Origin: an uncultured SAR86 cluster bacterium
Lineage (GTDB): Bacteria > Pseudomonadota > Gammaproteobacteria > Magnimaribacterales > D2472
Direction: 5' to 3'
Length of the DNA: 64,000 nucleotides
Assembly: GCA_902599315.1 (NCBI GenBank)
Contig: CACKEY010000001.1
Coordinates: 173,328 to 237,327, forward strand
Shown: piece by piece, positions 6,151 through 59,045 of the stretch
How positions within the stretch are numbered: position 1 is the first letter of the stretch
Layout of the letters: every line of letters begins with the position of its first letter
Program-made: the position numbers and the translations under genes
Notes under the pieces: model-generated
Told to the model about the DNA's origin: nothing
Databases searched by the model: none
Seen by the model: the letters and a program-made list of their open reading frames with translations, nothing else

Positions 6151-6156
6151 ATAAAA

Positions 6157-6298
6157 TGTGGGTAATTTGTGATTAGTTTTTATTTTATTTTTATCCACAT
6201 CTTATTTAGTAGAAAACTACAATTTATGGTGATGGGTTTACATAACTTACTAGGTTCAGTTAGTCTTTTATATAAGGGGCTTATTAGTTTTATGCACA
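6157..6298. other. DnaA-box cluster and candidate oriC in the mnmE-mnmG intergenic region
   Basis: One perfect TTATCCACA at 6191-6199. Two one-mismatch boxes: TGTGGGTAA at 6157-6165 (opposite orientation) and TTATGCACA at 6290-6298. An AT-only tract at 6171-6190 lies just 5' of the perfect box. Confidence 0.45.
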
Positions 6299-6356
6299 AA
6301 AAAAACGCCTCTAACAATAACAACAATAATATATTGTTGTTATAACATTCTTATAT

Positions 6357-8174
6357 ATGTTTGATGTAATAGTAATAGGCGGTGGGCATGCTGGTGTTGA
6401 AGCGGCGCATGCTGTTTTTAGGCAGGGGCTTAAATGTTGTCTTGTCACCTTTAAAAAAGATGCTATTGGTCAGATGTCCTGCAATCCAGCTATAGGTGGT
6501 TTGGGAAAATCACATTTAGTTAGAGAGGTCGATGCCTTAGGGGGTATTATGGCGCAAGCTACAGACCAATCTGGCATTCAGTCGAGAACTCTAAATACAA
6601 GAAAGGGTTTTGCCGTACAAGCACTTCGAGTGCAATGCGACAGAGATAAATACAAAAAAGCAATTCAAGATGCTTTGTATAAGACAACCATTGATATTAA
6701 GGAAGGAGAGGTAGTTGACATTCTTCTTCACAATGAAACGATTAAAGGCGTTGTGTTGAAAAATGGCGAGAAAATAGAATCACTAAAGACCATTCTAACA
6801 ACAGGAACTTTTCTTAATGGGATCATGTATAAAGGCGAAGAGGTTACTCTAGGTGGGCGCGCCGGCGATGATTCATCTGTTCCGCTATCCAAAAAACTCT
6901 ATGATCTGAAACTACCGATGGGAAGGTTGAAAACAGGAACCCCCGCAAGAATCAAACTATCCAGTATTGATCTTAGTGTTATGGATGAACAACCGGGAGA
7001 TCCAAATCCGCCCTCTATGTCAGTTTTGCAACCCCCAGCAAAAACGCTCCCACAAATATCTTGCTATATCACCAGAACAAACAAAAAAACACATCAAATA
7101 ATTTCAAACAATACACACTTATCTGCCATGTATTCAGGAAAAATATCAGGAATAGGACCCCGATATTGCCCATCAATAGAAGATAAAATTAACAGGTTTA
7201 GCGAAAAAGATAGCCATCAAATATTTATAGAACCAGAAGGCCTAGATAAAGATTTAGTTTATCCAAATGGTATTTCAACAAGCTTGCCAAGCGCTGCTCA
7301 GAAAGATTTTGTAGAGTCAATAAATGGGCTTGAAAACTCAGAAATAGAAGAATTTGGTTATGCTGTTGAATATGATTTTATTGATCCAAGATCACTAAAC
7401 CCAACCTTAGAAACAAAGTTTATAGAGAGTTTTTATCTCGCAGGTCAAATTAATGGAACAACGGGTTATGAGGAGGCTGCGGCCCAGGGCTTAATTGCTG
7501 GTATAAACGCAGGCCAATCAATTTTAAAAAAACCTGAGGTCATATTCGACAGAAGCGAAGCATATATAGGTGTGTTAATAGACGACCTAACACTTAACGG
7601 AGTTACAGAACCATATAGAATGTTTACCAGCCGAGCAGAGTATCGACTCATGCTATCTCAAGATACAGCATGCCAAAGACTCACCAAAAAAGGCCGCTCT
7701 CTAGGTCTTATAAGTGATGAAGCTTTTCAATCCTTCATAGAGCTAGAAAATAAATATCAAGCATTTTTAAACCAAATAAAAAAACAAAAAGTTAACATAA
7801 ACGACAAACTAGCTTCGGGTGGCGACCTTCTAAAAAGAACCGACATTGATACAACAGAGTTAAAAAAAGTATTAAAGATTTCAAAAAAAGAAGAAAAGTT
7901 TTTCAACAGAGCATCAAACGAAATTAAATATAAGGGCTATATAGCAAAACAACAAAGAGAGGTAGAGGGCTCCAAAAAAAATGAAAAAACAAGAATACCG
8001 AAAGAAATAGATTATTCGCTTATAAAGGGTCTATCAAACGAAGTGATTGAAAAATTAAACAAACACAAACCAATATCTCTTGGGCAAGCTAGCAGGCTGG
8101 AGGGAATCACACCTGCAGCCATAAATCTACTTGCCATAACAATTAAAAAAAACCAATTACTAGAAAAGGCATAG
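6357..8174 (+). CDS. mnmG: tRNA uridine 5-carboxymethylaminomethyl modification enzyme MnmG (GidA)
   Basis: 605 aa with the N-terminal FAD-binding motif [14 protein letters not shown] and GidA-family length and sequence. Confidence 0.97.
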
Positions 8175-8256
8175 CTCAATCAAAAAACACGACCAACAAC
8201 ACAACCTCATAGAAATCTATGTAGAGGAAATACTAAAATTCAACAAAGCTCACAAT

Positions 8257-8763
8257 TTGGTTGGCCGACACACGAAAGAAGAAATCTATTCACAAGACAT
8301 CCTTGATTGTCAGATGGTTCTAAAACATATACCACCAGAAAAAAAAATACTTGATATTGGAAGCGGAGCCGGGCTCCCAGGCTTGCTTATAGCAATTCTG
8401 CAGCCCCGATCACACATAACAATGTCAGAAAAAAATCAAAAAAAAGCATATTTTATAAAAAAAACAATTCAAACGCTTGGGCTCTCTAACGCTAAAATCA
8501 AAAACAAAGCCATAAGGCCTAACACAACAACAAAAAAACTCTTTGATATTATTACAGCAAGAGCCCTAGCACCAACACCAAAAATAATTAACTGGTCAGA
8601 ACATTTGCTAGCAAAAAATGGTAAATACGTTCTTATGAAGGGAACAATAGAAAAAACAAAAGAAGAGGTTGCTCAGTTGGATAATAATACATACTCTTAC
8701 AATATCCATAAAACAAACATTAAAGACAAGCAGAGGCACATTTTAGAGATAACCAAAAAATGA
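8257..8763 (+). CDS. rsmG: 16S rRNA m7G527 methyltransferase RsmG (the true start is probably upstream)
   Basis: SAM motif ILDIGSGAGLPGL. The frame is open from 8164 and encodes RsmG-like N-terminal residues (HNLIEIYVEEILKFNKAHNL) before the first canonical start, TTG at 8257. Confidence 0.85.
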   Translation: MVGRHTKEEIYSQDILDCQMVLKHIPPEKKILDIGSGAGLPGLLIAILQPRSHITMSEKNQKKAYFIKKTIQTLGLSNAKIKNKAIRPNTTTKKLFDIITARALAPTPKIINWSEHLLAKNGKYVLMKGTIEKTKEEVAQLDNNTYSYNIHKTNIKDKQRHILEITKK

Positions 8764-9515
8764 AACACATTATCGCTATTGCCAATCAAAAAGGAGGAGT
8801 TGGAAAAACAACCACAGCAGTTAACCTTGCCGCAGCCCTCGCGGCGACTAAGCGCAAAGTTCTTTTAATTGACTTAGACCCCCAAGGAAATGCAAGCACA
8901 GCCGCGGGAGTGCCCAAAAATGAGAAAACCCTATATAAGATCTACTATGAAGACCTAAATATAGTAGAGCACATATCAAAGTCACCTAGTGGATATGACG
9001 TCATACCGGGGGGTGAGAATTTAATAGCGTTGGAGGTTTATATCAGAAGCGACAACAAACAAGGTGAACTAAAAAAACAATTAGACCCCCTAGAGTATGA
9101 GTTTATAATAATGGATACACCGCCGTCTTTAAATCAACTAACACTAGAGTCTCTTTTTGCCGCGACAGCGACACTTATACCCCTCCAATGTGAATATTAT
9201 TCCTTAGAAGGCATCTCATCTCTAATAAACACAATAAATATTCTCAAAAACAAAAACCTTACAAACAATAAGGTTTTTGGAATTGTCAGAACAATGGTTG
9301 ATATGAGAAACAATCTAGCAAAAGAGGTGTCTGAAGAGCTCGAAAAACATTTCCCATCCTTGGTTTTTAACACACTCATTCCAAGAAATGTTAAATTAGC
9401 AGAAGCGCCTAGCCATGGAACTTCGGCAATTCAATACATGCCGTCGTCATTTGGCGCAAAAGCTTATTTAGCTCTAGCTGGTGAACTTATCAGGAGAATT
9501 GAAGTTGGTGGATAA
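8760..9515 (+). CDS. parA: Chromosome partitioning ATPase ParA (Soj)
   Basis: 251 aa with the deviant Walker A motif NQKGGVGKTTTAVNLA. Its start overlaps the rsmG stop by 4 nt. Confidence 0.93.
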   Translation: MKHIIAIANQKGGVGKTTTAVNLAAALAATKRKVLLIDLDPQGNASTAAGVPKNEKTLYKIYYEDLNIVEHISKSPSGYDVIPGGENLIALEVYIRSDNKQGELKKQLDPLEYEFIIMDTPPSLNQLTLESLFAATATLIPLQCEYYSLEGISSLINTINILKNKNLTNNKVFGIVRTMVDMRNNLAKEVSEELEKHFPSLVFNTLIPRNVKLAEAPSHGTSAIQYMPSSFGAKAYLALAGELIRRIEVGG

Positions 9516-10347
9516 AATACTTAACACAGGCCTAGACGCATTATTGGGAAATGTTGCGTCTCCCAACAAACAAACCATCAAAGAAATAGAGCTATCTCAA
9601 ATTAAACCAAATCGATTTCAACCCAGGCAATCATTCGACAAGCAAAAAATCACAGAACTTTCACAATCAATTACAAAGCACGGCATTTTATCACCTATCC
9701 TTGTTAGGGAAACAGGAGCTGGAGGCTATGAGCTTATAGCTGGCGAAAGAAGATTAAGAGCAGCAAAAGAAGCTGGACTGCAAACTGCTCCATGTATGAT
9801 TGATTCGGCAGAGGATCAGCTTTCGCTTGAACTTGCCCTTATTGAAAACCTTCAAAGGGAAGACTTAAATCCAATTGAAGAGGCTAGGGGTTACGATCGT
9901 TTAAAAAAAGAGTTTTCTTTGACGCAAGATAAAATTGCAGAAGTTACAGGAAAGGCTAGAAGTTCTGTTGCTAATTCGATGAGGCTTTTAAACCTCCCAT
10001 CATCTATTATTGAGCTCTTGTACTCCGGGGACTTAGAAAAAGGACATGCAAAAATTCTTGCATCAATGGAGCCCAGCGAAGCAGAGGAGCTTGCACAAAA
10101 AATAGTTTCTTTAGGCATGACTGTAAAAGATGCTGCCTCGTCAACCAAAACTAAAAGTACAAAAAGCACCTCCAAAACAAAAAATAGAGATCTTTTAAAC
10201 ATAGAGGAGGAGCTATCTGAAAACATTGGCCACAAAACCCAAATTGATCAACAAACCTCATCAAAAGGAAAAATTTCTATTTCATACTCATCCAAGGATG
10301 AACGTGAAGCAATAATTAACAAATTATTAAAATTAAAGAAAAATTAA
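9481..10347 (+). CDS. parB: Chromosome partitioning protein ParB (Spo0J)
   Basis: ParB box GERRLRAAKEAG followed by an HTH region. The track start is GTG at 9481, which overlaps parA. Starts at TTG 9499, TTG 9505 or GTG 9508 follow GGAG at 9492-9495 and are at least as likely. Confidence 0.92.
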   Translation: MNLSGELKLVDKILNTGLDALLGNVASPNKQTIKEIELSQIKPNRFQPRQSFDKQKITELSQSITKHGILSPILVRETGAGGYELIAGERRLRAAKEAGLQTAPCMIDSAEDQLSLELALIENLQREDLNPIEEARGYDRLKKEFSLTQDKIAEVTGKARSSVANSMRLLNLPSSIIELLYSGDLEKGHAKILASMEPSEAEELAQKIVSLGMTVKDAASSTKTKSTKSTSKTKNRDLLNIEEELSENIGHKTQIDQQTSSKGKISISYSSKDEREAIINKLLKLKKN

Positions 10348-10450
10348 GCTTGTCCTACAGACCATTAATTTTTATAATCTGCCTCGTAAAAAACATACTT
10401 AGCTTAAAATTAACACTTTAAAAAATAATCGGTTATCTGCCATAGGCCTC

Positions 10451-11591
<1,141 letters not shown>

Positions 11592-11604
11592 GTCTTATTT
11601 TTAG

Positions 11605-11841
<237 letters not shown>

Positions 11842-11848
11842 ATAAATA

Positions 11849-12319
11849 ATGAATATTAACGCAACACTCTTGGGTCAAACATTAGCATTTGTTATTTTTG
11901 TAGCAATTTGTTGGAAGTATGTATGGCCTCCTATCATTGCAATAATGGAAGAAAGAGAGAAGCGTATAGCGGATGGTTTAGAGGCAGCAAAAAAAGCAGA
12001 TGATTCCTTGGAGGAAGCACAACTTGCTTTTGATCAAGAGATGAACAAGGCAAAAGCAGAGGCCGCGGAAATATTAGAAAAAGCCAACCTTAGAGCCTCT
12101 CAAATTGTTAACGATGCGACAGCAAAAGCAGAGTCAGAAGCTGAAAAGATTTTATCCTCAGCATCAAAAACCATTGAGAATGACGTCAATAAAGCTAAAG
12201 AAGAGTTAAGGCAAAAAATGTCAGAACTTATTATCGATACTTCTGAAAAAATATTGGGCGATGAAATTAGCCCAGAGAAACATCAAGAGTTGCTCAAAAA
12301 AGCAGCTTCTGAGCTATAA
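11849..12319 (+). CDS. atpF: F0F1 ATP synthase subunit b
   Basis: 156 aa with a single N-terminal TM helix and a long charged Ala/Glu/Lys-rich helix. Operon position supports the call. Confidence 0.9.
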
Positions 12320-12322
12320 AAA

Positions 12323-12859
12323 ATGATAGAACTTTCTCCACTCGCAAGACCCTACGCCAAAGCTATTTTTACGGCAGCTTTAGATGGCGGAAAGCATGAG
12401 TCGGTTGCACAGGATCTTGCCTTGCTGTCAGCTGTGTCTCAAACCAAAGAGGTTGCCAGTTTGATTCAAGATCCACAACTTTCAAAAGAAAAAATAGCCA
12501 ACACTATTATTGGTTTAGCAGACGGAGAAGTGGGTGATTTGTCTAACAAGATGCTGGAACTTCTTGCGGATAACAAAAGACTTAATCTTATTGAAGCAAT
12601 TAATGTAAGCTATCAAGAACTTTTAGAGCAATATAATAAAACTAGTTCTATACTTGTGAATGTTGCCGACCAACCTTCTGAGGATAATAAAAAAATTATC
12701 ACAGAAAAATTGCTTGCAGAACACGGAGAGGGTTCGAATATAGAATTTTCAAAGGATCCCACTATCATGGGCGGCCTGTCAATCAAAATCGGAGATGAAA
12801 CTCTGGATCTATCCATTAGAGGAAAGGTCAAAAAATTAGTAAATCAATTAAATTTTTAA
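12323..12859 (+). CDS. atpH: F0F1 ATP synthase subunit delta
   Basis: 178 aa with an OSCP-like N-terminus (ARPYAKAIF) and the GGLSIKIGD motif near the C-terminus. Operon position supports the call. Confidence 0.9.
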   Translation: MIELSPLARPYAKAIFTAALDGGKHESVAQDLALLSAVSQTKEVASLIQDPQLSKEKIANTIIGLADGEVGDLSNKMLELLADNKRLNLIEAINVSYQELLEQYNKTSSILVNVADQPSEDNKKIITEKLLAEHGEGSNIEFSKDPTIMGGLSIKIGDETLDLSIRGKVKKLVNQLNF

Positions 12860-12868
12860 GGTGAAAAA

Positions 12869-14413
12869 ATGAGCCAACTAAATCCATCAGAAATTTCCAG
12901 CGTTTTAAAGGAAAAAATTTCAGGTCTTGATCTTTCTGCAGAAAGAAAAAATGAAGGTATTATCGTTAGCGTTTCAGACGGGATTGTGAGAATTCACGGT
13001 ATGGGCGACGTCATGTATGGCGAGCTAATAGAGTTTGAAAATGGTGTTCTTGGATTGGCGCTAAATCTTGAGCAAGATTCTGTAGGAGCAGTAGTTTTAG
13101 GAGATTATTTGGGACTAATCGAAGGCCAGAAAGCTGTTTGTACTGGAAGAATTTTAGAGGTTCCAGTGGGCGAAGAGTTACTAGGTAGAGTTGTAGATGC
13201 CTTGGGTAGCCCCATTGATGGTAAGGGAGAAATTAAAACAGATATGACTGCTCCAGTAGAAGTTGTAGCCCCTGGTGTGATTGCTAGGCAGTCAGTTGAT
13301 CAACCGGTTCAAATTGGTTTAAAAGCAGTTGATGCAATGGTACCAATTGGTCGAGGTCAAAGAGAGCTTATTATTGGCGACAGACAGACAGGTAAGACCG
13401 CTGTTGCGGTTGATGCAATCATCAACCAGAAAGGAACCGGTATCAAATGTATATATGTTGCTATTGGCCAAAAACAATCAACCGTCGTTAATGTTGTTAA
13501 AAAGCTTGAAGAACATGGAGCTTTAGAACATACAATTATTGTTTCAGCATCAGCATCTGACCCTGCGCCAATGCAATATCTTTCTGCATACTCAGGTTGT
13601 TCAATGGGTGAATATTTTAGGGATAAAGGTGAAGACGCATTGATTGTGTATGATGACCTCTCCAAACAAGCCGTTGCATATAGACAAGTATCTTTACTTT
13701 TAAAAAGACCTCCAGGAAGAGAGGCCTACCCAGGAGATGTTTTTTATCTTCATTCAAGATTGCTTGAAAGAGCCGCCAGAGTAAATGCTGATTATGTAGA
13801 AAAAGCTACCAACGGAAAGGTGAAAGGAAAAACTGGATCTTTAACCGCACTTCCGATTATTGAAACACAAGCAGGAGATGTTTCAGCTTTTGTTCCAACC
13901 AACGTTATATCAATTACTGATGGTCAAATTTTCTTAGAAACCGACCTTTTTAATTCAGGCATTAGACCTGCTATTAATCCTGGTATTTCTGTTTCTAGGG
14001 TAGGTGGAGCCGCTCAAACTAAGATTATGAAAAAGCTAAGTGGAGGCGTCAGAACCGCATTAGCTCAATATAGAGAACTTGCAGCTTTTTCTCAGTTTGC
14101 ATCTGATCTAGACGATGCAACCAAAGCTCAGCTTGCTAGAGGAATAAGAATTACTGAGCTGATTAAGCAGAAGCAATATTCCCCAATGAGTGTTGCCCAG
14201 CAATCACTGAGTATTTTTGCTGCAGATAGAGGCTATATGGATGATGTTGAGGTCGAAAAGATTGGCAGCTTTGAAGAAGCATTGCATGGCTACTTTACAT
14301 CTGAAAAAGCAGACTTGGAAAAGAGCATTAATGATACCGGTGATTGGAATGATGATATTGAAAAGCAATTCACAGAAGTTGTTGAGAAGTTCAAAAAAAC
14401 ACAAACATTTTAA
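12869..14413 (+). CDS. atpA: F0F1 ATP synthase subunit alpha
   Basis: 514 aa with Walker A GDRQTGKT. The sequence is highly conserved alpha-subunit sequence throughout. Confidence 0.98.
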
Positions 14414-29307: not shown

Positions 29308-31281
29308 ATGTCAGAGAATACCAACCTTAAGATTGCATTAGATAACGCTAGTGATTTATTTAACAATAATAATTTAAATGAATGTATAGAACAACTTGAA
29401 GAAATTTTAAATATCCATCCTTCAAACCTTAAAGCCTTGTCTTTGCTTTTAGATATCAATATAAAATTAAATAGGGCTGAGAAAGCTTTAAAAATTATCA
29501 AAAAACTAATTCAACTTGAACCTGATAGTAAGGAGCACCATGAAAAATTAGTAAAAGTTCATCAATTTCTTAATGACAACAGAGCATACGAGTCTGCATT
29601 AATTGATTTTCATAAAAAATTTCCATCCATTACAACCGCTCGTTTAATTTCAAATATTCATATTGAAAATGATAGGGAAGAGGAATCTGATCAAGTTATT
29701 CAGAGCTTCTTTGAGTCAGATAAAAAATACGGCGATTTATATAAGGGAATTAGACACGTCAAAGCAGGTAGATTAAAGCTTGCTGAAGATGCATATAAAC
29801 GAGTTCTTAAAAAAGATAAGAATAATATAGATGCTTTAAGGTTATTAGGGCTGCTTGCATTTAAAACAAAAGATTATGAGGTATCTGAGAGACTTTTTTT
29901 AAGAGTCCTTGAATTAGATCCAACTTTTTCATTAGCTTGGGATAACCTTGCAAAACTTTATAGGATTCAAAATAAACTTTCAAAGTCTGTCCCAGCATTT
30001 AAGAATCTCATTCAGTTGGATCCAAATAATTTTGAAGCATTGGTATCTTTAGGAACTGTTTATATTAAGTTATCTCAATATCAAGAAGGTATTAAATTAT
30101 ACGAAAAGTCATTAAAAATTAATCCTGAAAATCCTCGAGTCTTTCTCAGTCTTGGCCACGCATTGAAAACAGTTGGAGAGAGAAAAAGATGTGAGGATGC
30201 ATATCAAAATGCAATAAAGTATTTTCCATTATCTGGTGAGGCATATTGGAGCTTAGCAAATCTAAAGACTTATGAATTCTCAGATAAAGAAATTATTAAC
30301 ATGGAGTCATCTCTTAACAGAAACATACATCCAAAAGAGCTAATTCAGATGCACTTTGCACTCGGAAAAGCCTATGAGTCAAAAAAACATTTTGATAAAT
30401 CATTTAAACATTATGCTCAAGGGAATTGGCAACAAAGAAAGCAGCTAAGTTATAACGCCGAAGACTATAAAATTTCTATCGATAGCTTAATAGATTTTTT
30501 TGAAAGCAATCGTGATCTTTACAACTTAAAAGCTAAATCAAGTTTTGAAGATCCAATTTTTATTTTGGGTTTACCTAGATCAGGATCAACAATGATCGAA
30601 CAGATCCTTGCATCTCATTCTTTAATAGAGGGCACACAAGAATTACCAAATATTTTGGCCATTTCTAGAGATATAAAGTTAATTGATCAAGAAAATGGGT
30701 ATCCAGATAACTTATTAGTACTTGACCAATCTTCATTTGAAGAGCTAGGAGAAAAATACATTGATGAAACAAAATGGGCCAGATCTTCTAAACCATTTTT
30801 TATTGATAAAATGCCAAACAATTTTGTCCACATAGGACTTATAAAATTAATTTTACCCAAGGCTAAGATAATAGATGCAAGAAGAAATCCAATGGACGCT
30901 TGTTTTAGCTGCTTTAAACAGTATTTTGCTAAAGGCCAACATTTTACTTATGACCTAGATGATATTGCTAGATATTACAAAGACTATATTAGGCTAATGG
31001 ATTATTGGAAAAAGCTTTTTCCAGGTGAAATTTTTACAATCAATTATGAGGATGTTATCAAAAATCCTAATGAAAGAATTGCAGATCTATTAGAATTTTG
31101 TAACGTGAAGTTCGAAGAGAATTGTTTAAATTTTCATAAATCAAAACGGCCAGTAAAAACTGCAAGTTCTGAACAAGTCAGGCAGCCAATGTATAAGACC
31201 GGTTTAGATTATTGGATGAATTATGCAGATCATCTAGAAATTTTGACGAAACATTTTTGCGAGGGCGAAAAAAAAATCTAA
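29308..31281 (+). CDS. TPR-repeat protein with a C-terminal sulfotransferase domain
   Basis: 657 aa with N-terminal TPR repeats. The C-terminal domain carries the PAPS 5'-phosphosulfate-binding loop GLPRSGSTM. Confidence 0.85.
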   Translation: MSENTNLKIALDNASDLFNNNNLNECIEQLEEILNIHPSNLKALSLLLDINIKLNRAEKALKIIKKLIQLEPDSKEHHEKLVKVHQFLNDNRAYESALIDFHKKFPSITTARLISNIHIENDREEESDQVIQSFFESDKKYGDLYKGIRHVKAGRLKLAEDAYKRVLKKDKNNIDALRLLGLLAFKTKDYEVSERLFLRVLELDPTFSLAWDNLAKLYRIQNKLSKSVPAFKNLIQLDPNNFEALVSLGTVYIKLSQYQEGIKLYEKSLKINPENPRVFLSLGHALKTVGERKRCEDAYQNAIKYFPLSGEAYWSLANLKTYEFSDKEIINMESSLNRNIHPKELIQMHFALGKAYESKKHFDKSFKHYAQGNWQQRKQLSYNAEDYKISIDSLIDFFESNRDLYNLKAKSSFEDPIFILGLPRSGSTMIEQILASHSLIEGTQELPNILAISRDIKLIDQENGYPDNLLVLDQSSFEELGEKYIDETKWARSSKPFFIDKMPNNFVHIGLIKLILPKAKIIDARRNPMDACFSCFKQYFAKGQHFTYDLDDIARYYKDYIRLMDYWKKLFPGEIFTINYEDVIKNPNERIADLLEFCNVKFEENCLNFHKSKRPVKTASSEQVRQPMYKTGLDYWMNYADHLEILTKHFCEGEKKI

Positions 31282-42197: not shown

Positions 42198-42470
42198 ATG
42201 AATATATCTATTCTTTTGGTCCTGATATCGGCCGCACTCCTTTTTTTAGGCCACTTTACCTTAGCGTTAATTTTTTTTATATCAGCAGTTTTATTCTTTC
42301 TTATTGTTTTTGTTTTCGGGAGATTTTTTGATCATTTATATTGGGAAAACAAAAATAACACAATAAATAATGAAAGTGATTTAGATCATACTGATAATAA
42401 ACTTTCTCAGTTCCTATATGAGCAATATCTAAAAGGGGTTTATTGGAACGATAAACGAAAAAACAGATGA
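42198..42470 (+). CDS. Hypothetical small membrane protein
   Basis: 90 aa with two N-terminal TM helices. It overlaps the next gene by 4 nt. Confidence 0.5.
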   Translation: MNISILLVLISAALLFLGHFTLALIFFISAVLFFLIVFVFGRFFDHLYWENKNNTINNESDLDHTDNKLSQFLYEQYLKGVYWNDKRKNR

Positions 42471-43495
42471 TATTATCCATCACCCTTGATCGTAAAAAGG
42501 GTGGAATAGCAAACAGTTTAATCTCTTATTCTAAAGCGCTTGATTTAATTGGAGAAAAACATTTTATCATTTTGCCCAACGATGCCGCTGTGAAAGATGA
42601 CTTATTAAATTTACCAAATGTTCAAATTTTTTCTATTAAAAAATCTTTACTTTACTTTCATCTTTTAACCAAATTTATTTTTAAGCGAGACTATAAAAAT
42701 CATATTGAAGATTCTAAGTGGATATTTATTCATAACTCAAAGTTGATTAATTTTTTTAATCAATATAGTTTTAAACTCGGAATGATCAATCATTCTGGCA
42801 AGCTTCGAAATACCCTTCATAGGGCTTTTAATATATTTTTAACTCACTCGGGATATGAAAGATTTATTTCTCACTATCCTGATAATGAATCCACTAATCT
42901 CGTTATTCCACATGGATTTAAACAATTGCAGGAAGCTTTAAGCTTAAAAAAAAATAAAGTCCTAAAAGTAATTTCTGCAGGTAGATTTGTAACTAAAAAA
43001 GGTTTTAATGACTTAATAAAAGCAGCTGAAAAACTGCAAAAAGACAATTTTCCAGTACAAATAGAACTTTTTGGCTCTGGGCCACTAGAAGCGGAGTTAA
43101 GAAAAAAAATAAATGACCTGGCTTTAAAAAATATCCGATTGATTGGATGGACTGAAGATTTGCATAATGAATTTAGAAAAGCAGATGTTTTTTGTATAAC
43201 CTCTTTAGAGGAACCATTTGGTTTAATTATTGGAGAAGCAATGATGAGCGGATTGCCCGTTATTTCCACTCAAACTGACGGAGCCATGGAAATTTTTGGG
43301 ACAGAGCCAGAGAAAAAGGGCGCAATCTATGTAGATTTTTCTTCTCCTGATGAAATAAAAAATGCAATTCAAGCTCTTAGCAACGATGAAAAAAGACTTT
43401 TACTTGCTCAAAACGCACATGACAACATCAATACGAATTTTAGTTTGGAAAGATTATCGAGGAAATTGAAGGATTTATTTGAATATGCAGATTAA
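42467..43495 (+). CDS. Glycosyltransferase family 4 (GT-B, GT1-clan)
   Basis: 342 aa with the E-x7-E region EEPFGLIIGEAMMSGLPVIST. Confidence 0.85.
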   Translation: MILSITLDRKKGGIANSLISYSKALDLIGEKHFIILPNDAAVKDDLLNLPNVQIFSIKKSLLYFHLLTKFIFKRDYKNHIEDSKWIFIHNSKLINFFNQYSFKLGMINHSGKLRNTLHRAFNIFLTHSGYERFISHYPDNESTNLVIPHGFKQLQEALSLKKNKVLKVISAGRFVTKKGFNDLIKAAEKLQKDNFPVQIELFGSGPLEAELRKKINDLALKNIRLIGWTEDLHNEFRKADVFCITSLEEPFGLIIGEAMMSGLPVISTQTDGAMEIFGTEPEKKGAIYVDFSSPDEIKNAIQALSNDEKRLLLAQNAHDNINTNFSLERLSRKLKDLFEYAD

Positions 43496-44510
43496 CGTTG
43501 GCCATCTTACCGAAGGTATTTCTGGGCACGATGGCCAGGCTTTAGGGGTTATAAAAAATTTAGTTGATTCCGGTTATAACATAAATGTAACAACTATCTC
43601 TGTTGGATGGAGCATTAGGCTTACGAGGGGAATTTTAAAATTCATATCAAGAAAATTATCAAGATTTCCAAATCCAATTAATATAAATTTAATAACCAAG
43701 TGTTATGCATTTTCATCCTTTAGAAATATAGATATTTTTATATCTTCTGGTGCAAATCTTGCTCCTTTAAATTTGGCACTTACAAAACAAAACAATGCAA
43801 AAAATATTCACTTAAGCTCAAAACGAGACTGGCATATCCAAGACTTTACGGCATACATAACAACAAAAAAAATTTCACCTTTAAAAAATAATCTAAGCCC
43901 AGATATTGTGCCAAATTTATTTGATCCCGCTAAGTGCAGGCAGGCAGGACAGACTTTCATTAAAGAAAATAATTTAAATGAGGATAAGTTTTCATTATTG
44001 ATACTGGGAGGAAATGGAATTGGATATGAATATGATATGAATGAATGGGAGGAAATCTTAAGGAATTTTTCTGACTTCTGCACAAACAGTAATACAAAAC
44101 CTCTTTTCATTACCTCACCGAGGACACCTACTGAAGTTGAAAATATCATTCAATCAAAATATGACACCTCTTTTTCAGTCCTATTTCATTCTGAAAATAA
44201 AAGAGGCAGTTTTTCTCATCTTTTGTACATAGCATCTAATATATTTGTCACTGAAGATAGCTCAACAATGTTATCAGAAGCTATTTCTTCAGGAAAAAGA
44301 GTAGTATCTATATATCCTCAAAATATTCATGCCCCAGAAAAATATTCAGAAATTATACGAAAGTATGAAGCGCTTAATTTTGTTACAAGAAGGAATATCA
44401 CTGGAATTTGTGATGGCCCTTTTAATGAAATGATAGATATTTCTTTTGAAGTAAATCAAGCATTTGTTGAATTTAATAAATTATTAATTGAGTTATTGTT
44501 TGACCGGTAA
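43479..44510 (+). CDS. ELM1/DUF1022-family putative glycosyltransferase
   Basis: 343 aa. The N-terminal LTEGISGHDGQALGV resembles the ELM1-family d-G-k-x-G-x-x-x-Q-x-x-G motif. It overlaps the GT4 gene by 17 nt. Confidence 0.5.
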   Translation: MNMQINVGHLTEGISGHDGQALGVIKNLVDSGYNINVTTISVGWSIRLTRGILKFISRKLSRFPNPININLITKCYAFSSFRNIDIFISSGANLAPLNLALTKQNNAKNIHLSSKRDWHIQDFTAYITTKKISPLKNNLSPDIVPNLFDPAKCRQAGQTFIKENNLNEDKFSLLILGGNGIGYEYDMNEWEEILRNFSDFCTNSNTKPLFITSPRTPTEVENIIQSKYDTSFSVLFHSENKRGSFSHLLYIASNIFVTEDSSTMLSEAISSGKRVVSIYPQNIHAPEKYSEIIRKYEALNFVTRRNITGICDGPFNEMIDISFEVNQAFVEFNKLLIELLFDR

Positions 44511-56088: not shown

Positions 56089-56505
56089 TTATAAGTCTCC
56101 ATCTTTTCTATGCTCACTGCGATCAACTTCAAATTTTTCTCCATACCTTGCTTCAAGTTTATCTTGGTTTTCCTTAATGACTTCATATGGATCAAGTTTT
56201 AATGCCATGCAGGCAGTAACCCAGTACCACATAATATCGCCAAGCTCTCTTTTCATATGAAAAATATTTTCTTCTGATGATGGCTTTCCCTGAAGAAACA
56301 TCTTTTTTACTATTTCCACAAACTCACCTGTTTCGCTTCCCAATCCAAGTGCAGCTGTTAATAGTCTTGTAGACTCTATTTGAGATGAAGAATCAATTTC
56401 CTTCATGCGAGCATCTAAACTCCCTTGATCCAGGCTTGGCTCACTTGTTACCTTGGTAACAAAATCTCCATAACTATTTAAAAACTCTTTTACTTCAGTG
56501 CTCAT
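56089..56505 (-). CDS. MazG-like nucleotide pyrophosphohydrolase
   Basis: 138 aa with the all-alpha NTP-PPase motifs ETGEFVE and RELGDIMWYW. Confidence 0.8.
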   Translation of the reverse strand: MSTEVKEFLNSYGDFVTKVTSEPSLDQGSLDARMKEIDSSSQIESTRLLTAALGLGSETGEFVEIVKKMFLQGKPSSEENIFHMKRELGDIMWYWVTACMALKLDPYEVIKENQDKLEARYGEKFEVDRSEHRKDGDL

Positions 56506-56522: not shown

Positions 56523-57518
56523 TTAAAGCGGATTAATTTTCCAATCAAGAGATTCAAGAAAGCTAGATTCGGTAGCTTTTTCTATATCTAAAACTAAGTT
56601 ATTTTTTAAATCTATGCCGCTGATTAAAGCATAGTCTTCTAGAGATCTCTCCTTACCAAGGCTCAAAGGTTCTTCAACCTTGTCAGCAAATAAATCATCG
56701 AGCCTATTTAAACTTTTCTTATCTAATTCGGTCCATTTAACAGCTCTCTTTTGATCATCCTCTGGATCCCAATGCAGCTTTCTTGGTATATCGCTGGTAT
56801 CCGTATAAAGATGAAATAAAGGAACATCAGGGATATGGAAAAATGAGTAACCATTAGTAAATGCCCTCATTGCTAGTGAAAGTTCCTCCCCATAAAAATA
56901 GTAATTTGGATCATATGGAATTTCTTTGACAAAGGCGCCTTTGGTAAAGATACAGCCTGCGGCCAATAATATTGCATGAGTAATGTCAGTATGTTTTGTT
57001 GGAATGCCTATTTGTCTTGAAAATGAGCCTTTTAAAAATAAACTATCTTTTCTGTAAGTTATCACTTGGGTATGCTTATCTCCAGTGTTAAGTTCGAATA
57101 AACCCTTTTCAAAATCCAAGACTTTAAAGCTTCTAGGATAGGAGGTAATAATTGGTTTTTTAAAATACTCATCAATTTCTTGGTTGGCAGATATTTTTTC
57201 AAGCTGCTTGATAAAAATGGAATCCCATTCAGGCGCAAATTGTGTATGGGAGTCAACCTGCAAAAAGAAATCTTCTTCGTTAAAAAAACTTTGAGCTCTA
57301 TGTCGGGCCCAACATGGGCCTTTTGAAAACAAAGGATCTACATGATCATAATGAATTTGATCTGAAAATGTTACTCCATTAATATCAATCGTATTATCTG
57401 ATTGATCGCAGATGCTAAAAATCAGATCATTTTTATTCTCAGCGTTTTCATAGGCACTAAAAATTGTCGATACCAATAAAGGGTCTTGATAAGAGGCGAT
57501 TGAAATAAATATACTCAT
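56523..57518 (-). CDS. Glycosyltransferase of the GlcNAc family (Skp1 hydroxyproline GlcNAc-transferase Gnt1-like)
   Basis: The N-terminal IFISIASYQDPLLVSTI...LIFSICDQ matches my recollection of the family hallmark (FVSIASYRD...I.WQ). The start is set at ATG 57518 (MSIFISIAS). The track ORF extends to TTG at 57551. Confidence 0.55.
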   Translation of the reverse strand: MSIFISIASYQDPLLVSTIFSAYENAENKNDLIFSICDQSDNTIDINGVTFSDQIHYDHVDPLFSKGPCWARHRAQSFFNEEDFFLQVDSHTQFAPEWDSIFIKQLEKISANQEIDEYFKKPIITSYPRSFKVLDFEKGLFELNTGDKHTQVITYRKDSLFLKGSFSRQIGIPTKHTDITHAILLAAGCIFTKGAFVKEIPYDPNYYFYGEELSLAMRAFTNGYSFFHIPDVPLFHLYTDTSDIPRKLHWDPEDDQKRAVKWTELDKKSLNRLDDLFADKVEEPLSLGKERSLEDYALISGIDLKNNLVLDIEKATESSFLESLDWKINPL

Positions 57519-57520
57519 TT

Positions 57521-57550
57521 TGTATGCGTTCTCTACTTTCTTAGCATACA
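57521..57550. promoter_or_regulatory. Inverted repeat (candidate operator) in the GT / P4H divergent intergenic region
   Basis: TGTATGC-(16 nt)-GCATACA, with perfect 7-bp arms, lies within the 45 nt between the divergent starts at 57518 and 57564. Confidence 0.35.
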
Positions 57551-57563
57551 ATTATTTCTACTA

Positions 57564-58202
57564 ATGACTAAGGAATATCCAAAAAAAATTGCTGATAATG
57601 TGATAATGCATGCGGCTGACCCAATTCTGTATGTCGTTGATAGCTTTTTAAGTAATGATGAATGCGAGGCTTTTATCAAGGCTTCTGAGGGTAAACTCAA
57701 GCCTTCAACAGTAATAAGCCCTGATAAACATGTCCAACATGAAAGCAGAACAAGTGAGAATTGCTGGATAGAGCATGATGCGAATGAAATTATTCATGAA
57801 GTAAGTAAAAGATTCTCGATTTTAGTCCAAATGCCAATAAGAAATGCTGAACAGTATCAGCTTGTTTATTATAGAAAGGGAGCTCAATATAAACCCCATT
57901 TTGACTCATTCGATTATGAAACTGAAGATGGAAAAAATAACTGGGAGCCAGGTGGCCAGAGAATGGTAACGGTTATTGCATATTTAAATGATGTGGAGGA
58001 GGGAGGTGAAACAGGTTTTCCAGAGCTTGATATTAATGTTCCAGCAAAAAAAGGAGATGTAGTTGTTTTTCATAATACCCTCCTAAATGATTCAGCAACT
58101 TATCCAAAGATTAATCCAAAATCACTTCATGGGGGCATGCCCGTAATTATGGGTGAAAAGTGGATGGTAAATCTTTGGTTTAGAGAAAACCTCAGATACT
58201 AG
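57564..58202 (+). CDS. Prolyl 4-hydroxylase (2-oxoglutarate/Fe(II)-dependent oxygenase, P4Hc type)
   Basis: 212 aa with the H-x-D facial triad (KPHFDSF), the distal His (SLHGGMPV) and a 2OG-binding Lys (GEKWMVNLW). Confidence 0.85.
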   Translation: MTKEYPKKIADNVIMHAADPILYVVDSFLSNDECEAFIKASEGKLKPSTVISPDKHVQHESRTSENCWIEHDANEIIHEVSKRFSILVQMPIRNAEQYQLVYYRKGAQYKPHFDSFDYETEDGKNNWEPGGQRMVTVIAYLNDVEEGGETGFPELDINVPAKKGDVVVFHNTLLNDSATYPKINPKSLHGGMPVIMGEKWMVNLWFRENLRY

Positions 58203-59045
58203 TTACTTTAACTTTAAAGAACTCTGACTAGTTACAATATTAAACAAATGATCCTGAGCTTCTGGCTTAAGTTGAGCCACTCCAACCGCCAAAACATCAA
58301 TAATTGCCATGTAAGCTAGTCTTGAGGTTAGCGGTCTAGTTAATCTTGCATTTTCTCCAACATCAATATCTAGAGAAATATCGCATATTCTTGAAAGGGG
58401 AGTATTTGAGGGCATTAGGCCAATTACAATAACTCCAGAGCTTTTAACTGTTTTTATGCTCTCAACCAAAGCCGCTGTGTTGCCAGATTGAGATATTGCC
58501 ACAACCACATCTCTATTATTAAGAGAGTTTGCTGACATAAACTGAATGTGAGGATCAGAAATACAGGAGGAGGGTATTTTTAGTCGAAAAAATTTGTGTT
58601 GAGCGTCCATGGCTATTGGTACCGAACCTCCAAAAGCATAGAATTCAACTCTTTTAGCATTAGCCAATGTCTCAATTGCCTCTTCAAGTGAAGTTTGATC
58701 GAGCTGCGATCTAACATTCAAAATTTCACTGATGGTGCTATCGAATACTTTTTCAGTTAGCTCTTGAATAGAATCTTCAGGATTTATTTCATATGAATTA
58801 AAATAATCATCTGCAGCAAGTTGTTGAGCAAGAGTCAATTTAAACTTTTGAAAACCATCGAAATTTACGGCTTTACAAAACCTTATTAAGGTTGGCTCGC
58901 TGATTCCTATCTCCTCAGATGCTTGTGCAGTTGTTAGCTCAATAATTGCACTTGGCTTATTTAAAATAAATTCAGCAACTTTCACTTCAGACTTTCTTAA
59001 GTTAGGAAGTGCAATTTTAATTTCTCTTAATAATTTAGTTTGCAT
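58203..59045 (-). CDS. RpiR/HexR family transcriptional regulator (HTH plus SIS domain)
   Basis: 280 aa with an N-terminal HTH_6 region (SEEIGISEPTLIRFCKAV) and a C-terminal SIS domain (ISQSGNT). Its stop abuts the P4H stop with 0 nt between them. Confidence 0.85.
   Translation of the reverse strand: MQTKLLREIKIALPNLRKSEVKVAEFILNKPSAIIELTTAQASEEIGISEPTLIRFCKAVNFDGFQKFKLTLAQQLAADDYFNSYEINPEDSIQELTEKVFDSTISEILNVRSQLDQTSLEEAIETLANAKRVEFYAFGGSVPIAMDAQHKFFRLKIPSSCISDPHIQFMSANSLNNRDVVVAISQSGNTAALVESIKTVKSSGVIVIGLMPSNTPLSRICDISLDIDVGENARLTRPLTSRLAYMAIIDVLAVGVAQLKPEAQDHLFNIVTSQSSLKLK

What the first reader, a model, noticed from the sequence alone, without database searches (positions are those of the whole stretch)
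56523..58202. Divergent pair of a prolyl 4-hydroxylase and a Skp1-type GlcNAc-transferase-like gene, a candidate bacterial hydroxyproline-glycosylation module
The plus-strand gene is a clear P4Hc-type 2OG/Fe(II) oxygenase, with H-x-D, a distal His and a 2OG-binding Lys. The divergent minus-strand gene starts IFISIASYQDPLLVSTI...LIFSICDQ. I recognise this as the hallmark of the GlcNAc glycosyltransferase family, named after Gnt1, the enzyme that adds GlcNAc to hydroxyproline of Skp1 in Dictyostelium and Toxoplasma.

In those eukaryotes a cytoplasmic P4H (PhyA) and Gnt1 act consecutively on one proline as an oxygen-sensing modification. Finding both activities head to head, 45 nt apart or 12 nt with the alternative start, suggests the same two-step chemistry on an unknown bacterial or phage target.

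A MazG-like pyrophosphohydrolase is co-oriented 17 nt downstream of the glycosyltransferase. An RpiR regulator abuts the P4H.
Basis: partly seen in the sequence, partly recalled or inferred. Interest (0 to 1): 0.6.

Follow-up and report, generated by a model that had tools for sequence, protein, structure and literature searches.

The report
Bacterial prolyl-hydroxylase plus GT60 glycosyltransferase pair
An abundant ocean bacterium (SAR86) carries, head to head, a collagen-type proline hydroxylase and a protein-type sugar transferase; the same two enzymes are fused in other bacteria, where they sit beside exported proteins with proline/threonine repeats, so the pair probably decorates an exported protein that is still unidentified.

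Summary
The window comes from a SAR86 gammaproteobacterium. ORF 56523-57518(-) is a clear PF11397/GT60 glycosyltransferase (E 5.5e-44, invariant DxH). Its predicted fold is closest to polypeptide GalNAc-transferases. ORF 57564-58202(+) is a prolyl 4-hydroxylase with an intact HxD...H...K site.

The P4H is collagen-type (B. anthracis, Chlamydomonas and human C-P4H, E about 1e-30). It is not the PhyA/PHD type used on Skp1.

Coupling of the two activities is supported in three ways:
- The P4H<>GT-MazG trio is kept in every SAR86 locus long enough to show it, with three different left flanks.
- 12 of 150 GT60 cluster representatives carry a fused P4H-like domain.
- In other bacteria, GT60 genes (some fused to or near a P4H, some without one) lie next to exported proteins or peptides with (TPAP)n or (TP)n repeats.

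Within SAR86, GT and P4H are hypervariable inside a conserved backbone.

Three things are unresolved: the SAR86 substrate, the donor sugar, and whether the sugar goes on Hyp or Thr. Most GT60 genes have no P4H nearby, so a Hyp linkage is not required. I rate it a new variant of a known kind, of moderate to high interest.

The parts
56523..57518 (-). GT60 (PF11397 'GlcNAc') GT-A glycosyltransferase, 331 aa, with no signal peptide or transmembrane segment. It has the DxH motif at D89-S-H91.
   Evidence: Pfam E 5.5e-44. D89 and H91 are invariant, and H228 and H236 are conserved. The AF2 model has pLDDT 96.7. The best PDB folds are GT27 polypeptide GalNAc-transferases, E about 1e-9, TM about 0.57. 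No GT60 structure has been solved.
57519..57551 (-). Possible 11-codon N-terminal extension from an upstream TTG. It is probably not translated.
   Evidence: Homologues start at M(S/K)IF. Nearly all database gene calls are 331 aa and a few are 338 aa.
57519..57563 (.). 45-nt divergent intergenic spacer between the GT and P4H starts.
   Evidence: The promoter scan is not above the shuffled expectation, with 8 sites found against 10.8 expected, so a shared regulatory region is only inferred.
57564..58202 (+). Collagen-type prolyl 4-hydroxylase, minimal catalytic domain, 212 aa, cytoplasmic. Active-site residues are H112-x-D114, H189 and K199.
   Evidence: PF13640 E 1.3e-15. PDB hits are B. anthracis P4H 3itq (2.6e-30), Chlamydomonas P4H 2jig (8.6e-29), human C-P4H alpha-2 7zsc (4.6e-25) and PBCV-1 P4H 5c5t (2.1e-17). 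The active-site residues are aligned.
56089..56505 (-). MazG-like NTP pyrophosphohydrolase, 17 nt downstream of the GT and co-oriented. It is the conserved third member of the trio, and its role in the module is unknown.
   Evidence: PF03819. It hits phrog_229 at E 1.6e-41. It is present next to the GT in every SAR86 locus long enough to show it, whatever the flanks. It is 72-96% identical across loci, so it behaves like backbone and is not hypervariable.
58203..59045 (-). RpiR/HexR-type regulator (HTH_6 plus SIS), convergent with the P4H. It is a flanking backbone gene, not part of the module.
   Evidence: It is absent from the flank in L016, L018, L020 and L043, which still keep the trio.

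Best explanation
The two genes encode a cytoplasmic protein-modification pair that acts on the same substrate. That substrate is a proline-containing segment, probably Pro/Thr-rich, of a protein or peptide that is later exported or displayed on the surface.

Proposed steps:
1. The P4H uses O2, 2-oxoglutarate and Fe(II) to convert peptidyl-Pro to 4-Hyp.
2. The GT60 enzyme, a retaining GT-A with a DxH metal site, transfers a HexNAc to a side-chain hydroxyl of the same segment, either Hyp or Thr/Ser. The donor is most likely UDP-GlcNAc, by family precedent.

What is shown: the enzyme families, the intact catalytic motifs, the absence of export signals, the recurrent fusion or adjacency of the two domains, and the adjacency of GT60 (with or without P4H) to PT-repeat exoproteins in other bacteria.

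What is inferred: that the SAR86 pair shares one substrate, that this substrate is exported and PT-rich, the donor sugar, and the acceptor residue.

The hypervariability of both genes within SAR86 fits a product exposed to diversifying selection, for example by phage or grazers.
For: Enzyme identity:
- The GT model (pLDDT 96.7) is closest to polypeptide GalNAc-transferases.

Fusions:
- 12 of the 150 best 50%-identity cluster representatives of GT homologues contain a P4H-like domain.
- Pfam confirms PF11397 plus PF13640 in P0164, P0210, P0134, P0159, P0209 and P0122, and in the Burkholderiales protein of L076.
- More fusions appear, including one from Ramlibacter and one from Prymnesium.

Conserved adjacency in SAR86:
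- Adjacency holds in all 55 syntenic SAR86-type loci, down to 43% GT and 37% P4H identity.
- It holds with three different left flanks.

Candidate substrates next to the genes in other bacteria:
- L084-86: an operon of GT60-P4H fusion, then TpsB, then a TpsA whose C-terminal part is (TPAP)n.
- L088: a TPS exoprotein with PT(S)-rich repeats two genes upstream of a fusion.
- L087: a TbpB-like lipoprotein with (TP)11 after the lipobox, directly upstream of a fusion.
- L078, Ramlibacter albus: a TPS exoprotein of more than 1950 aa with (PAPT)n, divergent from GT60.
- L079, Vreelandella: a PT-repeat protein adjacent to GT60.
- L092: a protein with a PT linker directly upstream of GT60.
- L090: a double-glycine leader peptide with a PT-rich core, directly upstream of GT60 and a C39-ABC/HlyD/OEP exporter.
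- L082: a stand-alone P4H two genes from a PKD protein with (TP)n.

Hypervariability in SAR86:
- Among genome pairs with UvrD at least 90% identical, GT identity falls to 40% (median 74%) and P4H to 41% (median 85%). MazG stays at or above 84% and HexR at or above 87%.
- There are 12 GT types and 5 P4H types across 6 backbone clades.
- The partial Mantel correlation of GT with P4H, given the flanks, is r = 0.48, reached by 0 of 2000 permutations.
Against: - No substrate was found for SAR86. There is no Pro-rich or PT-repeat ORF in the 64-kb window or in any of the SAR86 loci fetched, and whole SAR86 genomes could not be searched.
- The PT-repeat association comes from other lineages whose GT60 is only 35-40% identical. 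The SAR86 P4H is only distantly related to the fused P4H domains (E 6e-14 to P0164).
- Most GT60 genes lack a nearby P4H, so the two activities are separable.
- Adjacency within SAR86 is largely vertical synteny. Correlated divergence of neighbouring genes can result from shared recombination tracts rather than shared function.
- The PT-repeat enrichment has no formal genome-wide background. High-GC loci also throw up spurious Pro-rich antisense ORFs. I counted only long ORFs or ORFs with a Pfam hit, plus the leader peptide in L090.
Confidence: 0.5

Rival explanations
1. The two enzymes are functionally independent. They sit together because of inherited gene order in a streamlined genome, and both happen to lie in a recombination-prone variable spot. 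Each has its own substrate.
For: - The whole neighbourhood (DctP-UvrD-HexR ... MazG-NMO) is syntenic across SAR86.
- SAR86 has a second GT60 paralogue in an unrelated conserved locus (AlgH-GT60-GGT-MscS) with no P4H.
- 10 of 11 non-SAR86 genome loci have no P4H.
- In L045 only the GT was replaced (48% identity), while the P4H stayed at 92%.
Against: - Fusion of the two domains in one polypeptide recurs in several bacterial lineages and in a haptophyte.
- The trio is kept when the flanks change.
- Fusions and lone GT60 genes sit beside the same kind of PT-repeat protein.
Confidence: 0.2
2. This is a strict Skp1-like system. A single proline of a cytoplasmic regulatory protein is hydroxylated in an O2-dependent way and then capped with GlcNAc on the Hyp, serving as an oxygen sensor.
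For: - Both enzymes are cytoplasmic, like PhyA and Gnt1, with no signal peptide or transmembrane segment (model).
- The GT is in the same family as Gnt1.
- The invariably linked MazG carries invariant prolines, for example in VTSEPS, and could in principle be a fixed partner or target. This is untested speculation.
Against: - The P4H is collagen-type with Lys as 2OG ligand. No PHD or PhyA appears among the PDB hits.
- Bacteria lack Skp1 (established knowledge).
- Hypervariable enzymes fit poorly with a conserved housekeeping target.
- The contexts in other bacteria point to exported repeat proteins, not regulators.
- All three MazG prolines are invariant, so conservation does not single out a site.
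Confidence: 0.1
3. The substrate is not a protein. The GT builds or decorates a glycan, lipid or nucleotide-derived molecule, the 2OG oxygenase hydroxylates a small molecule, and MazG is part of that chemistry.
For: - MazG is always linked, and a MazG fragment travels with a transferred GT allele in Porticoccaceae.
- Some GT60 genes lie in sugar-nucleotide or polysaccharide loci: L093 after the rml-type genes, and the L082 P4H in an EPS/exosortase locus.
- Giant proteins with 4-8 GT60 domains look like glycan-building machines.
- Jumbo-phage homologues sit beside NUDIX and carbamoyltransferase genes.
Against: - The P4H is about 30% identical to enzymes that act on peptidyl proline.
- The GT fold is closest to polypeptide GalNAc-transferases.
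- The characterised GT60 enzymes act on polypeptides (PMC8724618).
- GT60 fusions to a PqqD/RRE-like domain and the adjacent leader peptide with its exporter point to peptide substrates.
- MazG behaves as conserved backbone, unlike the two variable genes.
Confidence: 0.1

Closest known systems
PhyA/Gnt1 Skp1 hydroxyproline-glycosylation pathway (Dictyostelium, Toxoplasma)
   Same: A cytoplasmic 2OG/Fe(II) prolyl 4-hydroxylase is combined with a soluble GT60 GlcNAc-transferase, both without secretory signals. The GT belongs to the same Pfam/CAZy family.
   Different: The P4H here is collagen-type with Lys as 2OG ligand, not PHD/PhyA-type. Bacteria have no Skp1. No further glycan-extending GTs are adjacent. 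The enzymes are hypervariable. Contexts in other bacteria suggest multi-site repeat substrates that are exported. The acceptor residue is unknown.
Protist polypeptide alpha-GlcNAc-transferases (GT60; T. cruzi, Dictyostelium) and metazoan GT27 ppGalNAc-Ts (mucin-type O-glycosylation)
   Same: GT60 membership, the DxH motif, and a fold closest to GT27. The candidate substrates in bacteria are Thr/Pro-rich repeats that resemble mucin domains.
   Different: The eukaryotic enzymes are Golgi type II membrane proteins. This one is soluble and cytoplasmic, and it is paired or fused with a P4H.
Plant, algal and chlorovirus collagen-type P4Hs with Hyp-O-glycosyltransferases (HRGP pathway; Cr-P4H-1, PBCV-1 P4H)
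   Same: The P4H subfamily is the same (2jig at 8.6e-29 and 5c5t at 2.1e-17). These enzymes hydroxylate Pro-rich repeats such as (SP)n or (PAPK)n (my knowledge), and glycosylation follows.
   Different: The plant Hyp-glycosyltransferases belong to other GT families (my knowledge: GT31, GT95, GT77) and work in the ER/Golgi. Here the GT is GT60 and the compartment is the bacterial cytoplasm.
Bifunctional hydroxylase-glycosyltransferases of collagen (LH3/PLOD3; mimivirus L230)
   Same: A 2OG oxygenase and a GT-A glycosyltransferase are fused in one polypeptide and act one after the other on a repeat protein. This is analogous to the bacterial GT60-P4H fusions. UniRef labels the Prymnesium fusion 'procollagen-lysine 5-dioxygenase'.
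   Different: Those enzymes hydroxylate lysine and add Gal or Glc to Hyl (my knowledge). They have a different oxygenase subfamily and a different GT family.
HMW1C/HMW1A-HMW1B of Haemophilus (cytoplasmic glycosylation of a two-partner-secretion adhesin)
   Same: The operon logic matches L084-86: a cytoplasmic modifying enzyme is encoded with a TpsB transporter and a TpsA exoprotein.
   Different: HMW1C is a GT41 N-glycosyltransferase that acts on Asn (my knowledge). No hydroxylase is involved. No TPS system was seen next to the SAR86 pair.

Membership tests
CAZy GT60 / Pfam PF11397 'GlcNAc' glycosyltransferases | Significant match to the family profile above the curated cutoff | tested here: met
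   E 5.5e-44, 151.5 bits against a cutoff of 21. The database clusters also carry PF11397.
CAZy GT60 / Pfam PF11397 'GlcNAc' glycosyltransferases | GT-A fold with a DxH metal-binding motif (in place of DxD), shared with GT27 | tested here: met
   D89-S-H91 is invariant in 50 homologues. The DxH feature is described in PMC7185993. The AF2 model has a GT-A fold closest to GT27.
CAZy GT60 / Pfam PF11397 'GlcNAc' glycosyltransferases | Retaining transfer of GlcNAc from UDP-GlcNAc to a polypeptide hydroxyl | not testable with these tools
   This needs an enzyme assay. Only family precedent supports it (PMC8724618).
Gnt1 subfamily (Skp1 Hyp GlcNAc-transferase) | Groups with Dictyostelium and Toxoplasma Gnt1 rather than with pp-alpha-GlcNAcTs | not tested
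   No reference Gnt1 sequence or structure could be obtained. There is no GT60 entry in the PDB, and the afdb50 library was not available.
Gnt1 subfamily (Skp1 Hyp GlcNAc-transferase) | Partner hydroxylase of the PhyA/PHD type, with Skp1 as target | tested here: not met
   The partner is a collagen-type P4H, and no PHD or PhyA hit appears at E <= 0.1. Skp1 is a eukaryotic protein (established knowledge).
Gnt1 subfamily (Skp1 Hyp GlcNAc-transferase) | Soluble cytoplasmic enzyme without a membrane anchor | tested here: met
   The sequence starts directly with the first beta-strand of the Rossmann-like domain (E3-10 in the model). There is no hydrophobic N-terminus.
Collagen-type prolyl 4-hydroxylases (P4Hc; BaP4H, Cr-P4H-1, C-P4H alpha, PBCV-1 P4H) | Sequence similarity to characterised members over the whole catalytic domain | tested here: met
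   3itq at 2.6e-30 (residues 13-208), 2jig at 8.6e-29, 7zsc at 4.6e-25 and 5c5t at 2.1e-17.
Collagen-type prolyl 4-hydroxylases (P4Hc; BaP4H, Cr-P4H-1, C-P4H alpha, PBCV-1 P4H) | His-x-Asp...His iron triad and a Lys that binds the C5 carboxylate of 2OG | tested here: met
   H112-x-D114, H189 and K199 align with the corresponding residues of B. anthracis P4H.
Collagen-type prolyl 4-hydroxylases (P4Hc; BaP4H, Cr-P4H-1, C-P4H alpha, PBCV-1 P4H) | Hydroxylates peptidyl proline in Pro-rich repeats | not testable with these tools
   This needs an assay. The only indirect support is PT-repeat proteins next to related genes in other bacteria.
Two-partner-secretion adhesin glycosylation systems (HMW1C-like logic) | Modifying enzyme encoded with TpsB and TpsA | tested here: not met
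   It is met for the fusion loci L084-86, L088 and L078. It is not met for the SAR86 locus or window, which has no TPS, ShlB or PT-repeat gene.

The most novel reading that the evidence does not exclude
Bacteria have a previously undescribed cytoplasmic O-glycosylation system that resembles mucin or HRGP glycosylation. A collagen-type P4H and a GT60 transferase, either as separate genes or fused, hydroxylate Pro/Thr-rich linkers of TPS exoproteins, surface lipoproteins and leader-peptide bacteriocins and add HexNAc to them before export. In SAR86, one of the most abundant ocean heterotrophs, this is an O2-dependent and strain-variable surface modification with Hyp-linked sugar. The bacterial system would be the prokaryotic relative of both the eukaryotic Skp1 Hyp-GlcNAc pathway and protist mucin-type O-GlcNAc initiation.
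Probability: 0.25. Interest if true: 0.8.

Novelty: new variant of a known kind. Interest (0 to 1): 0.6.

Why it matters
No bacterial GT60 enzyme and no bacterial Hyp-glycosylation system turned up in the literature I could search. That library is limited.

If the pair works as proposed, four things follow:
- It would add a new protein O-glycosylation route to bacteria, one that depends on O2 and 2-oxoglutarate.
- It would give a function to the widespread but unexplained bacterial and phage 'prolyl 4-hydroxylase' genes.
- It would explain the PT-repeat 'linkers' of many exoproteins as modification sites.
- It would bear on the origin of the eukaryotic Skp1 and mucin-type pathways.

In SAR86 the sharp allele turnover of both genes inside a conserved backbone marks them as a strain-level diversity hotspot. 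Such a hotspot is plausibly linked to phage or grazer pressure. The hypothesis can be tested directly in cultured relatives that carry GT60 next to a PT-repeat exoprotein, namely Ramlibacter albus GTP1 and Vreelandella salicampi BH103.

Tried and rejected
- **Viral contig scan.** A scan of viral contigs with the GT found no relatives. GenBank phages gave only four Xanthomonas/Stenotrophomonas jumbo phages at 27-29% identity, with no P4H nearby in Xoo-sp13.
- **Genome scan.** It succeeded with 15 sequences, but the 80 loci kept are dominated by SAR86.
- **afdb50 fold search.** This library was unavailable, so Gnt1 versus pp-GlcNAcT placement could not be tested. Two key West-lab papers were not held.
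- **Search for a substrate.** I looked for a substrate in the window and in the SAR86 loci using Pro-rich windows, collagen-like G-x-y runs, xP repeats and PT-type low complexity. I found only antisense or spurious ORFs.
- **Promoter and terminator scan.** The divergent region is not above the shuffled expectation.
- **Defence-system library.** There was only a generic '2OG' Cas-associated profile hit for the P4H, and nothing for the GT or MazG. I rejected a defence-system reading.
- **MazG as the substrate.** All three prolines are invariant in 53 orthologues, so conservation does not discriminate. I keep this only as speculation.
- **Co-variation of GT and P4H.** The co-variation is significant. 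I do not count it as proof of co-evolution, because adjacent genes share recombination tracts.
- **Literature searches.** Searches for bacterial GT60, PF11397 or SAR86 P4H found nothing relevant.
Full report
**1. What is in the sequence**

The window comes from a SAR86-cluster gammaproteobacterium. The GT protein is 100% identical to clusters found on SAR86 contigs, and the related genome loci are SAR86 SAGs and MAGs.

- The GT runs 56523-57518(-) from the ATG. An in-frame TTG lies at 57551.
- The P4H runs 57564-58202(+).
- MazG runs 56089-56505(-), 17 nt downstream of the GT.
- An RpiR/HexR-type regulator runs 58203-59045(-) and abuts the P4H stop.

The gap between the divergent starts is 45 nt, or 12 nt with the TTG start. 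Homologues align from M(S/K)IF and most gene calls are 331 aa, so the ATG is the better start.

**2. Family assignments**

*The glycosyltransferase*
- The GT matches Pfam PF11397 'Glycosyltransferase (GlcNAc)' at E 5.5e-44, 151.5 bits against a cutoff of 21.
- In an alignment of 50 diverse homologues, D89 and H91 (QVDSHT) are invariant. GT27 and GT60 are reported to carry DxH in place of DxD (PMC7185993).
- No GT60 structure has been solved.
- An AlphaFold model built on that alignment is very confident (pLDDT 96.7, pTM 0.94).
- Its best PDB matches are polypeptide GalNAc-transferases of GT27: human T2, T1, T4 and T7, and Toxoplasma T3 (E about 1e-9, TM about 0.57).

*The prolyl hydroxylase*
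- The P4H matches PF13640.
- In the PDB it matches only collagen-type prolyl 4-hydroxylases:
  - B. anthracis P4H, 2.6e-30
  - Chlamydomonas P4H-1, 8.6e-29
  - human C-P4H alpha-2, 4.6e-25
  - chlorovirus PBCV-1 P4H, 2.1e-17
  - transmembrane P4H, 9.6e-10
- The alignment shows H112-x-D114, H189 and K199 in register with the catalytic residues.
- No PHD2, PhyA or PPHD entry appears at E <= 0.1.
However, the hydroxylase belongs to the collagen/HRGP branch, not to the PhyA/PHD branch that modifies Skp1.

*Other points*
- Neither protein has a signal peptide or membrane anchor, so both should act in the cytoplasm.
- MazG matches PF03819 and, strongly, phage MazG families (phrog_229, 1.6e-41).

**3. 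Co-occurrence**

*Within SAR86*
- A genome scan with a GT alignment gave 545 confirmed relatives, and the best 80 loci were kept.
- In 55 of these, essentially all SAR86-type, the arrangement P4H<>GT-MazG is present. GT identity to the window falls as low as 43% and P4H identity as low as 37%.
- Much of this is vertical synteny (DctP-UvrD-HexR-[P4H<>GT-MazG]-NMO).
- The trio nevertheless persists when the flanks change. HexR is missing in L016 and L043, and a TonB-receptor-like gene replaces the whole left flank in L018 and L020.

*Beyond SAR86*
- The strongest evidence is gene fusion. Of the 150 best 50%-identity cluster representatives of GT homologues (3729 clusters at E <= 0.001), 12 contain a P4H-like domain.
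- Pfam confirms PF11397 plus PF13640 in proteins of 619 to 2461 aa. Some have several GT60 domains, two oxygenase domains and an AhpC/TSA domain.
- A Burkholderiales genome (L076) encodes a 621-aa GT60-P4H fusion followed by a GT60-methyltransferase.
- A search with that fusion found more examples, including one from Ramlibacter and a haptophyte (Prymnesium) protein with P4H, ShK and GT60 domains.
- In L094 a separate P4H lies three genes from a GT60.
- The coupling is not obligatory. Ten of the 11 non-SAR86 genome loci lack a P4H within about 6 kb. So do a second SAR86 paralogue (in a conserved AlgH-GT60-GGT-MscS locus) and loci L090, L092 and L093.

**4. What the enzymes probably act on**

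Neighbourhoods in other bacteria repeatedly contain an exported protein with a Pro/Thr repeat next to the GT60 or P4H gene:

| Locus | Modifying gene | Adjacent protein or peptide |
|---|---|---|
| L084-86 | GT60-P4H fusion, plus a second divergent fusion | Operon continues with TpsB (POTRA/ShlB) and a TpsA with TPS domain; its sequence runs into ...PTPAPTPAPTPAPT... at the contig end |
| L088/89 | Fusion | TPS-domain protein with 12% Pro and 15% Thr and PAPTSTP repeats, two genes upstream |
| L087 | Fusion | TbpB-like lipoprotein with (TP)11 just after the lipobox, directly upstream |
| L078 (Ramlibacter albus) | Lone GT60 | Divergent TPS exoprotein of more than 1950 aa with (PAPT)n |
| L079 (Vreelandella salicampi) | GT60 | 1269-aa protein with Pfam 'PT repeat', abutting |
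| L092 | GT60 | DUF6519 protein with a PT linker, directly upstream |
| L082/83 | Stand-alone P4H | PKD protein with (TP)n, two genes away |
| L090/91 | GT60 | Uncalled small ORF (see below), then an AprE/HlyD, C39-peptidase ABC and OEP exporter |

The small ORF in L090/91 encodes MRILTLEEMKRVAGG|SGTS...APPVTTAPPTTPPITTPAPTTGI. This is a textbook double-glycine leader followed by a PT-rich core.

One GT60 is also fused to a PqqD/RRE-like domain.

Together with the ppGalNAc-T-like fold, this argues that bacterial GT60 enzymes glycosylate Pro/Thr-rich peptide segments of proteins destined for export. It also argues that P4H, where present, modifies the same segments.

Two caveats apply. I have no measured genome-wide background for PT-repeat proteins, and high-GC loci also produced spurious Pro-rich antisense ORFs, which I did not count.

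**5. The SAR86 pair specifically**

I found no candidate substrate in the 64-kb window or in any SAR86 locus fetched. Whole SAR86 genomes could not be searched with these tools. The extension of the PT-repeat model to SAR86 is therefore an inference.

A feature specific to SAR86 is hypervariability:
- Among genome pairs whose UvrD is at least 90% identical, GT identity ranges down to 40% (median 74%) and P4H down to 41% (median 85%). MazG and HexR never fall below 84% and 87%.
- There are 12 GT types and 5 P4H types across 6 backbone clades.
- Against L045, the DNA is 88-93% identical on both sides but unalignable over most of the GT gene (window 57244-56516). The proteins are 48% identical.
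- That L045 allele is 67% identical to the GT of a Porticoccaceae genome (L046), which also carries a MazG fragment upstream. GT alleles therefore move between lineages.
- GT and P4H divergences are correlated after controlling for the flanks (partial Mantel r = 0.48, 0 of 2000 permutations). Physical linkage could produce this on its own.
- This pattern is typical of genes whose products are exposed to diversifying selection. That fits a surface or secreted glycoprotein better than a conserved cytoplasmic regulator.

**6. Mechanism proposed**

1. The P4H (Fe(II), 2OG, O2) converts peptidyl-Pro to 4-Hyp in a Pro-containing segment of a cytoplasmic precursor.
2. The GT60 enzyme (DxH with a divalent metal, retaining) transfers HexNAc, probably from UDP-GlcNAc, to a hydroxyl of the same segment.
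3. The product is exported.

*Shown:* the families, the motifs, the cytoplasmic location, the fusions and adjacency, and the PT-repeat neighbours elsewhere.

*Inferred:* a shared substrate in SAR86, the donor sugar, the acceptor residue and export.

I put about 0.65 on functional coupling and about 0.3 on the sugar being Hyp-linked. The role of the always-linked MazG is unexplained.

**7. Comparison with known systems**

- The pair works like the eukaryotic P4H-then-glycosyltransferase systems. It shares the GT family and the cytoplasmic location with PhyA/Gnt1 on Skp1.
- It shares the P4H subfamily and the repeat-type substrates with plant, algal and chlorovirus HRGP modification.
- It shares the GT family and TP-rich acceptors with protist mucin-type pp-alpha-GlcNAcTs.
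- The fused forms parallel LH3 and mimivirus L230. The TPS-linked forms parallel HMW1C and HMW1A.
- It is a member of GT60 and of the collagen-type P4H family. It is not a member of the Skp1 pathway, because the partner hydroxylase type and the target are not met.

**8. Novelty and verdict**

I found no description of a bacterial GT60 enzyme, a bacterial P4H-GT60 module or its link to PT-repeat exoproteins in the searchable library. Databases only label these proteins 'GlcNAc-transferase family protein' or 'prolyl 4-hydroxylase'.

I rate it a new variant of a known kind. Interest is 0.6.

Noticed in passing
L090:7666-7845 (+), with GT60 at 8001-9035 and the exporter at 9125-13887: An uncalled 59-aa ORF has a double-glycine leader (MRILTLEEMKRVAGG) and a PT-rich core (…APPVTTAPPTTPPITTPAPTTGI). 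It lies directly upstream of a GT60 gene and an AprE/HlyD, C39-peptidase ABC and OEP exporter. This looks like a gene cluster for a glycosylated bacteriocin or RiPP that uses a GT60 enzyme.
   Followed up: partly
L085:3-2729 (-); L078:2-5851 (-); L088:285-2513 (+): Two-partner-secretion (TPS-domain) exoproteins with long (TPAP)n, (PAPT)n or PAPTSTP repeats are encoded next to GT60, or next to GT60-P4H fusions, in three unrelated contexts. In L084-86 the order is fusion, then TpsB, then TpsA.
   Followed up: partly
P0122 (2461 aa), P0134, P0159, P0209, P0330, P0332: Giant bacterial proteins have several GT60 domains (up to eight matched stretches in P0122), one or two P4H-like 2OG-oxygenase domains and an AhpC/TSA (peroxiredoxin-like) domain. 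One comes from an alphaproteobacterial MAG. The role of the thioredoxin-fold domain is unexplained.
   Followed up: partly
L053, L055-L059, L062, L063, L065-L070 (GT at about 6001-7000): SAR86 genomes carry a second GT60 paralogue, 40-46% identical, in a different conserved operon-like locus: AlgH/DUF179, GT60, gamma-glutamyltranspeptidase, MscS channel. No P4H is nearby.
   Followed up: partly
L046:5714-5842 and 6001-6999 (Porticoccaceae bacterium nBUS_09): This GT is 67% identical to one SAR86 GT allele type (L045) but only 47% identical to the window's GT. A 42-aa MazG-like fragment lies just upstream. This looks like a remnant of horizontal transfer of a GT-MazG piece between SAR86 and Porticoccaceae.
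   Followed up: partly
window 56089-56505 (-): The MazG-like gene is invariably linked to the GT across SAR86 and resembles phage MazG families more than any solved structure (phrog_229 at 1.6e-41; no PDB hit at E <= 0.01). It is unclear why it travels with the pair.
   Followed up: partly
window 29308-31281 (+), within the low-GC stretch at about 28-46 kb: A 657-aa TPR-repeat plus sulfotransferase (PF13469) protein lies here. The same low-GC region (29-35% GC against about 37%) also holds a GT4 glycosyltransferase (42467-43495) and an ELM1-like protein (43479-44510). This could be another variable region for envelope or protein modification. Separately, a sulfotransferase-P4H fusion (P0312) appeared.
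   Followed up: no
L001 (Xanthomonas phage Xoo-sp13, 225561-226913) and three other jumbo phages: Jumbo phages of Xanthomonas and Stenotrophomonas encode a 450-aa GT60 homologue (27-29% identity). In Xoo-sp13 it sits next to a carbamoyltransferase and near a NUDIX hydrolase. No P4H is nearby.
   Followed up: partly
L013:5316-6015; L049 and L073 (GT match starts at 6413 and 6322): In a few SAR86 MAGs the P4H is split into two ORFs, or the GT alignment is broken. These are either assembly frameshifts or occasional pseudogenisation of the pair.
   Followed up: no
L092:1-10266: A GT60 and a GT1-type gene follow Baseplate_J and DUF6519 genes, in what looks like a phage-tail-like or contractile-injection cluster. 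The DUF6519 protein has a PT linker (…LPPLPTPSPTPTPS…).
   Followed up: no
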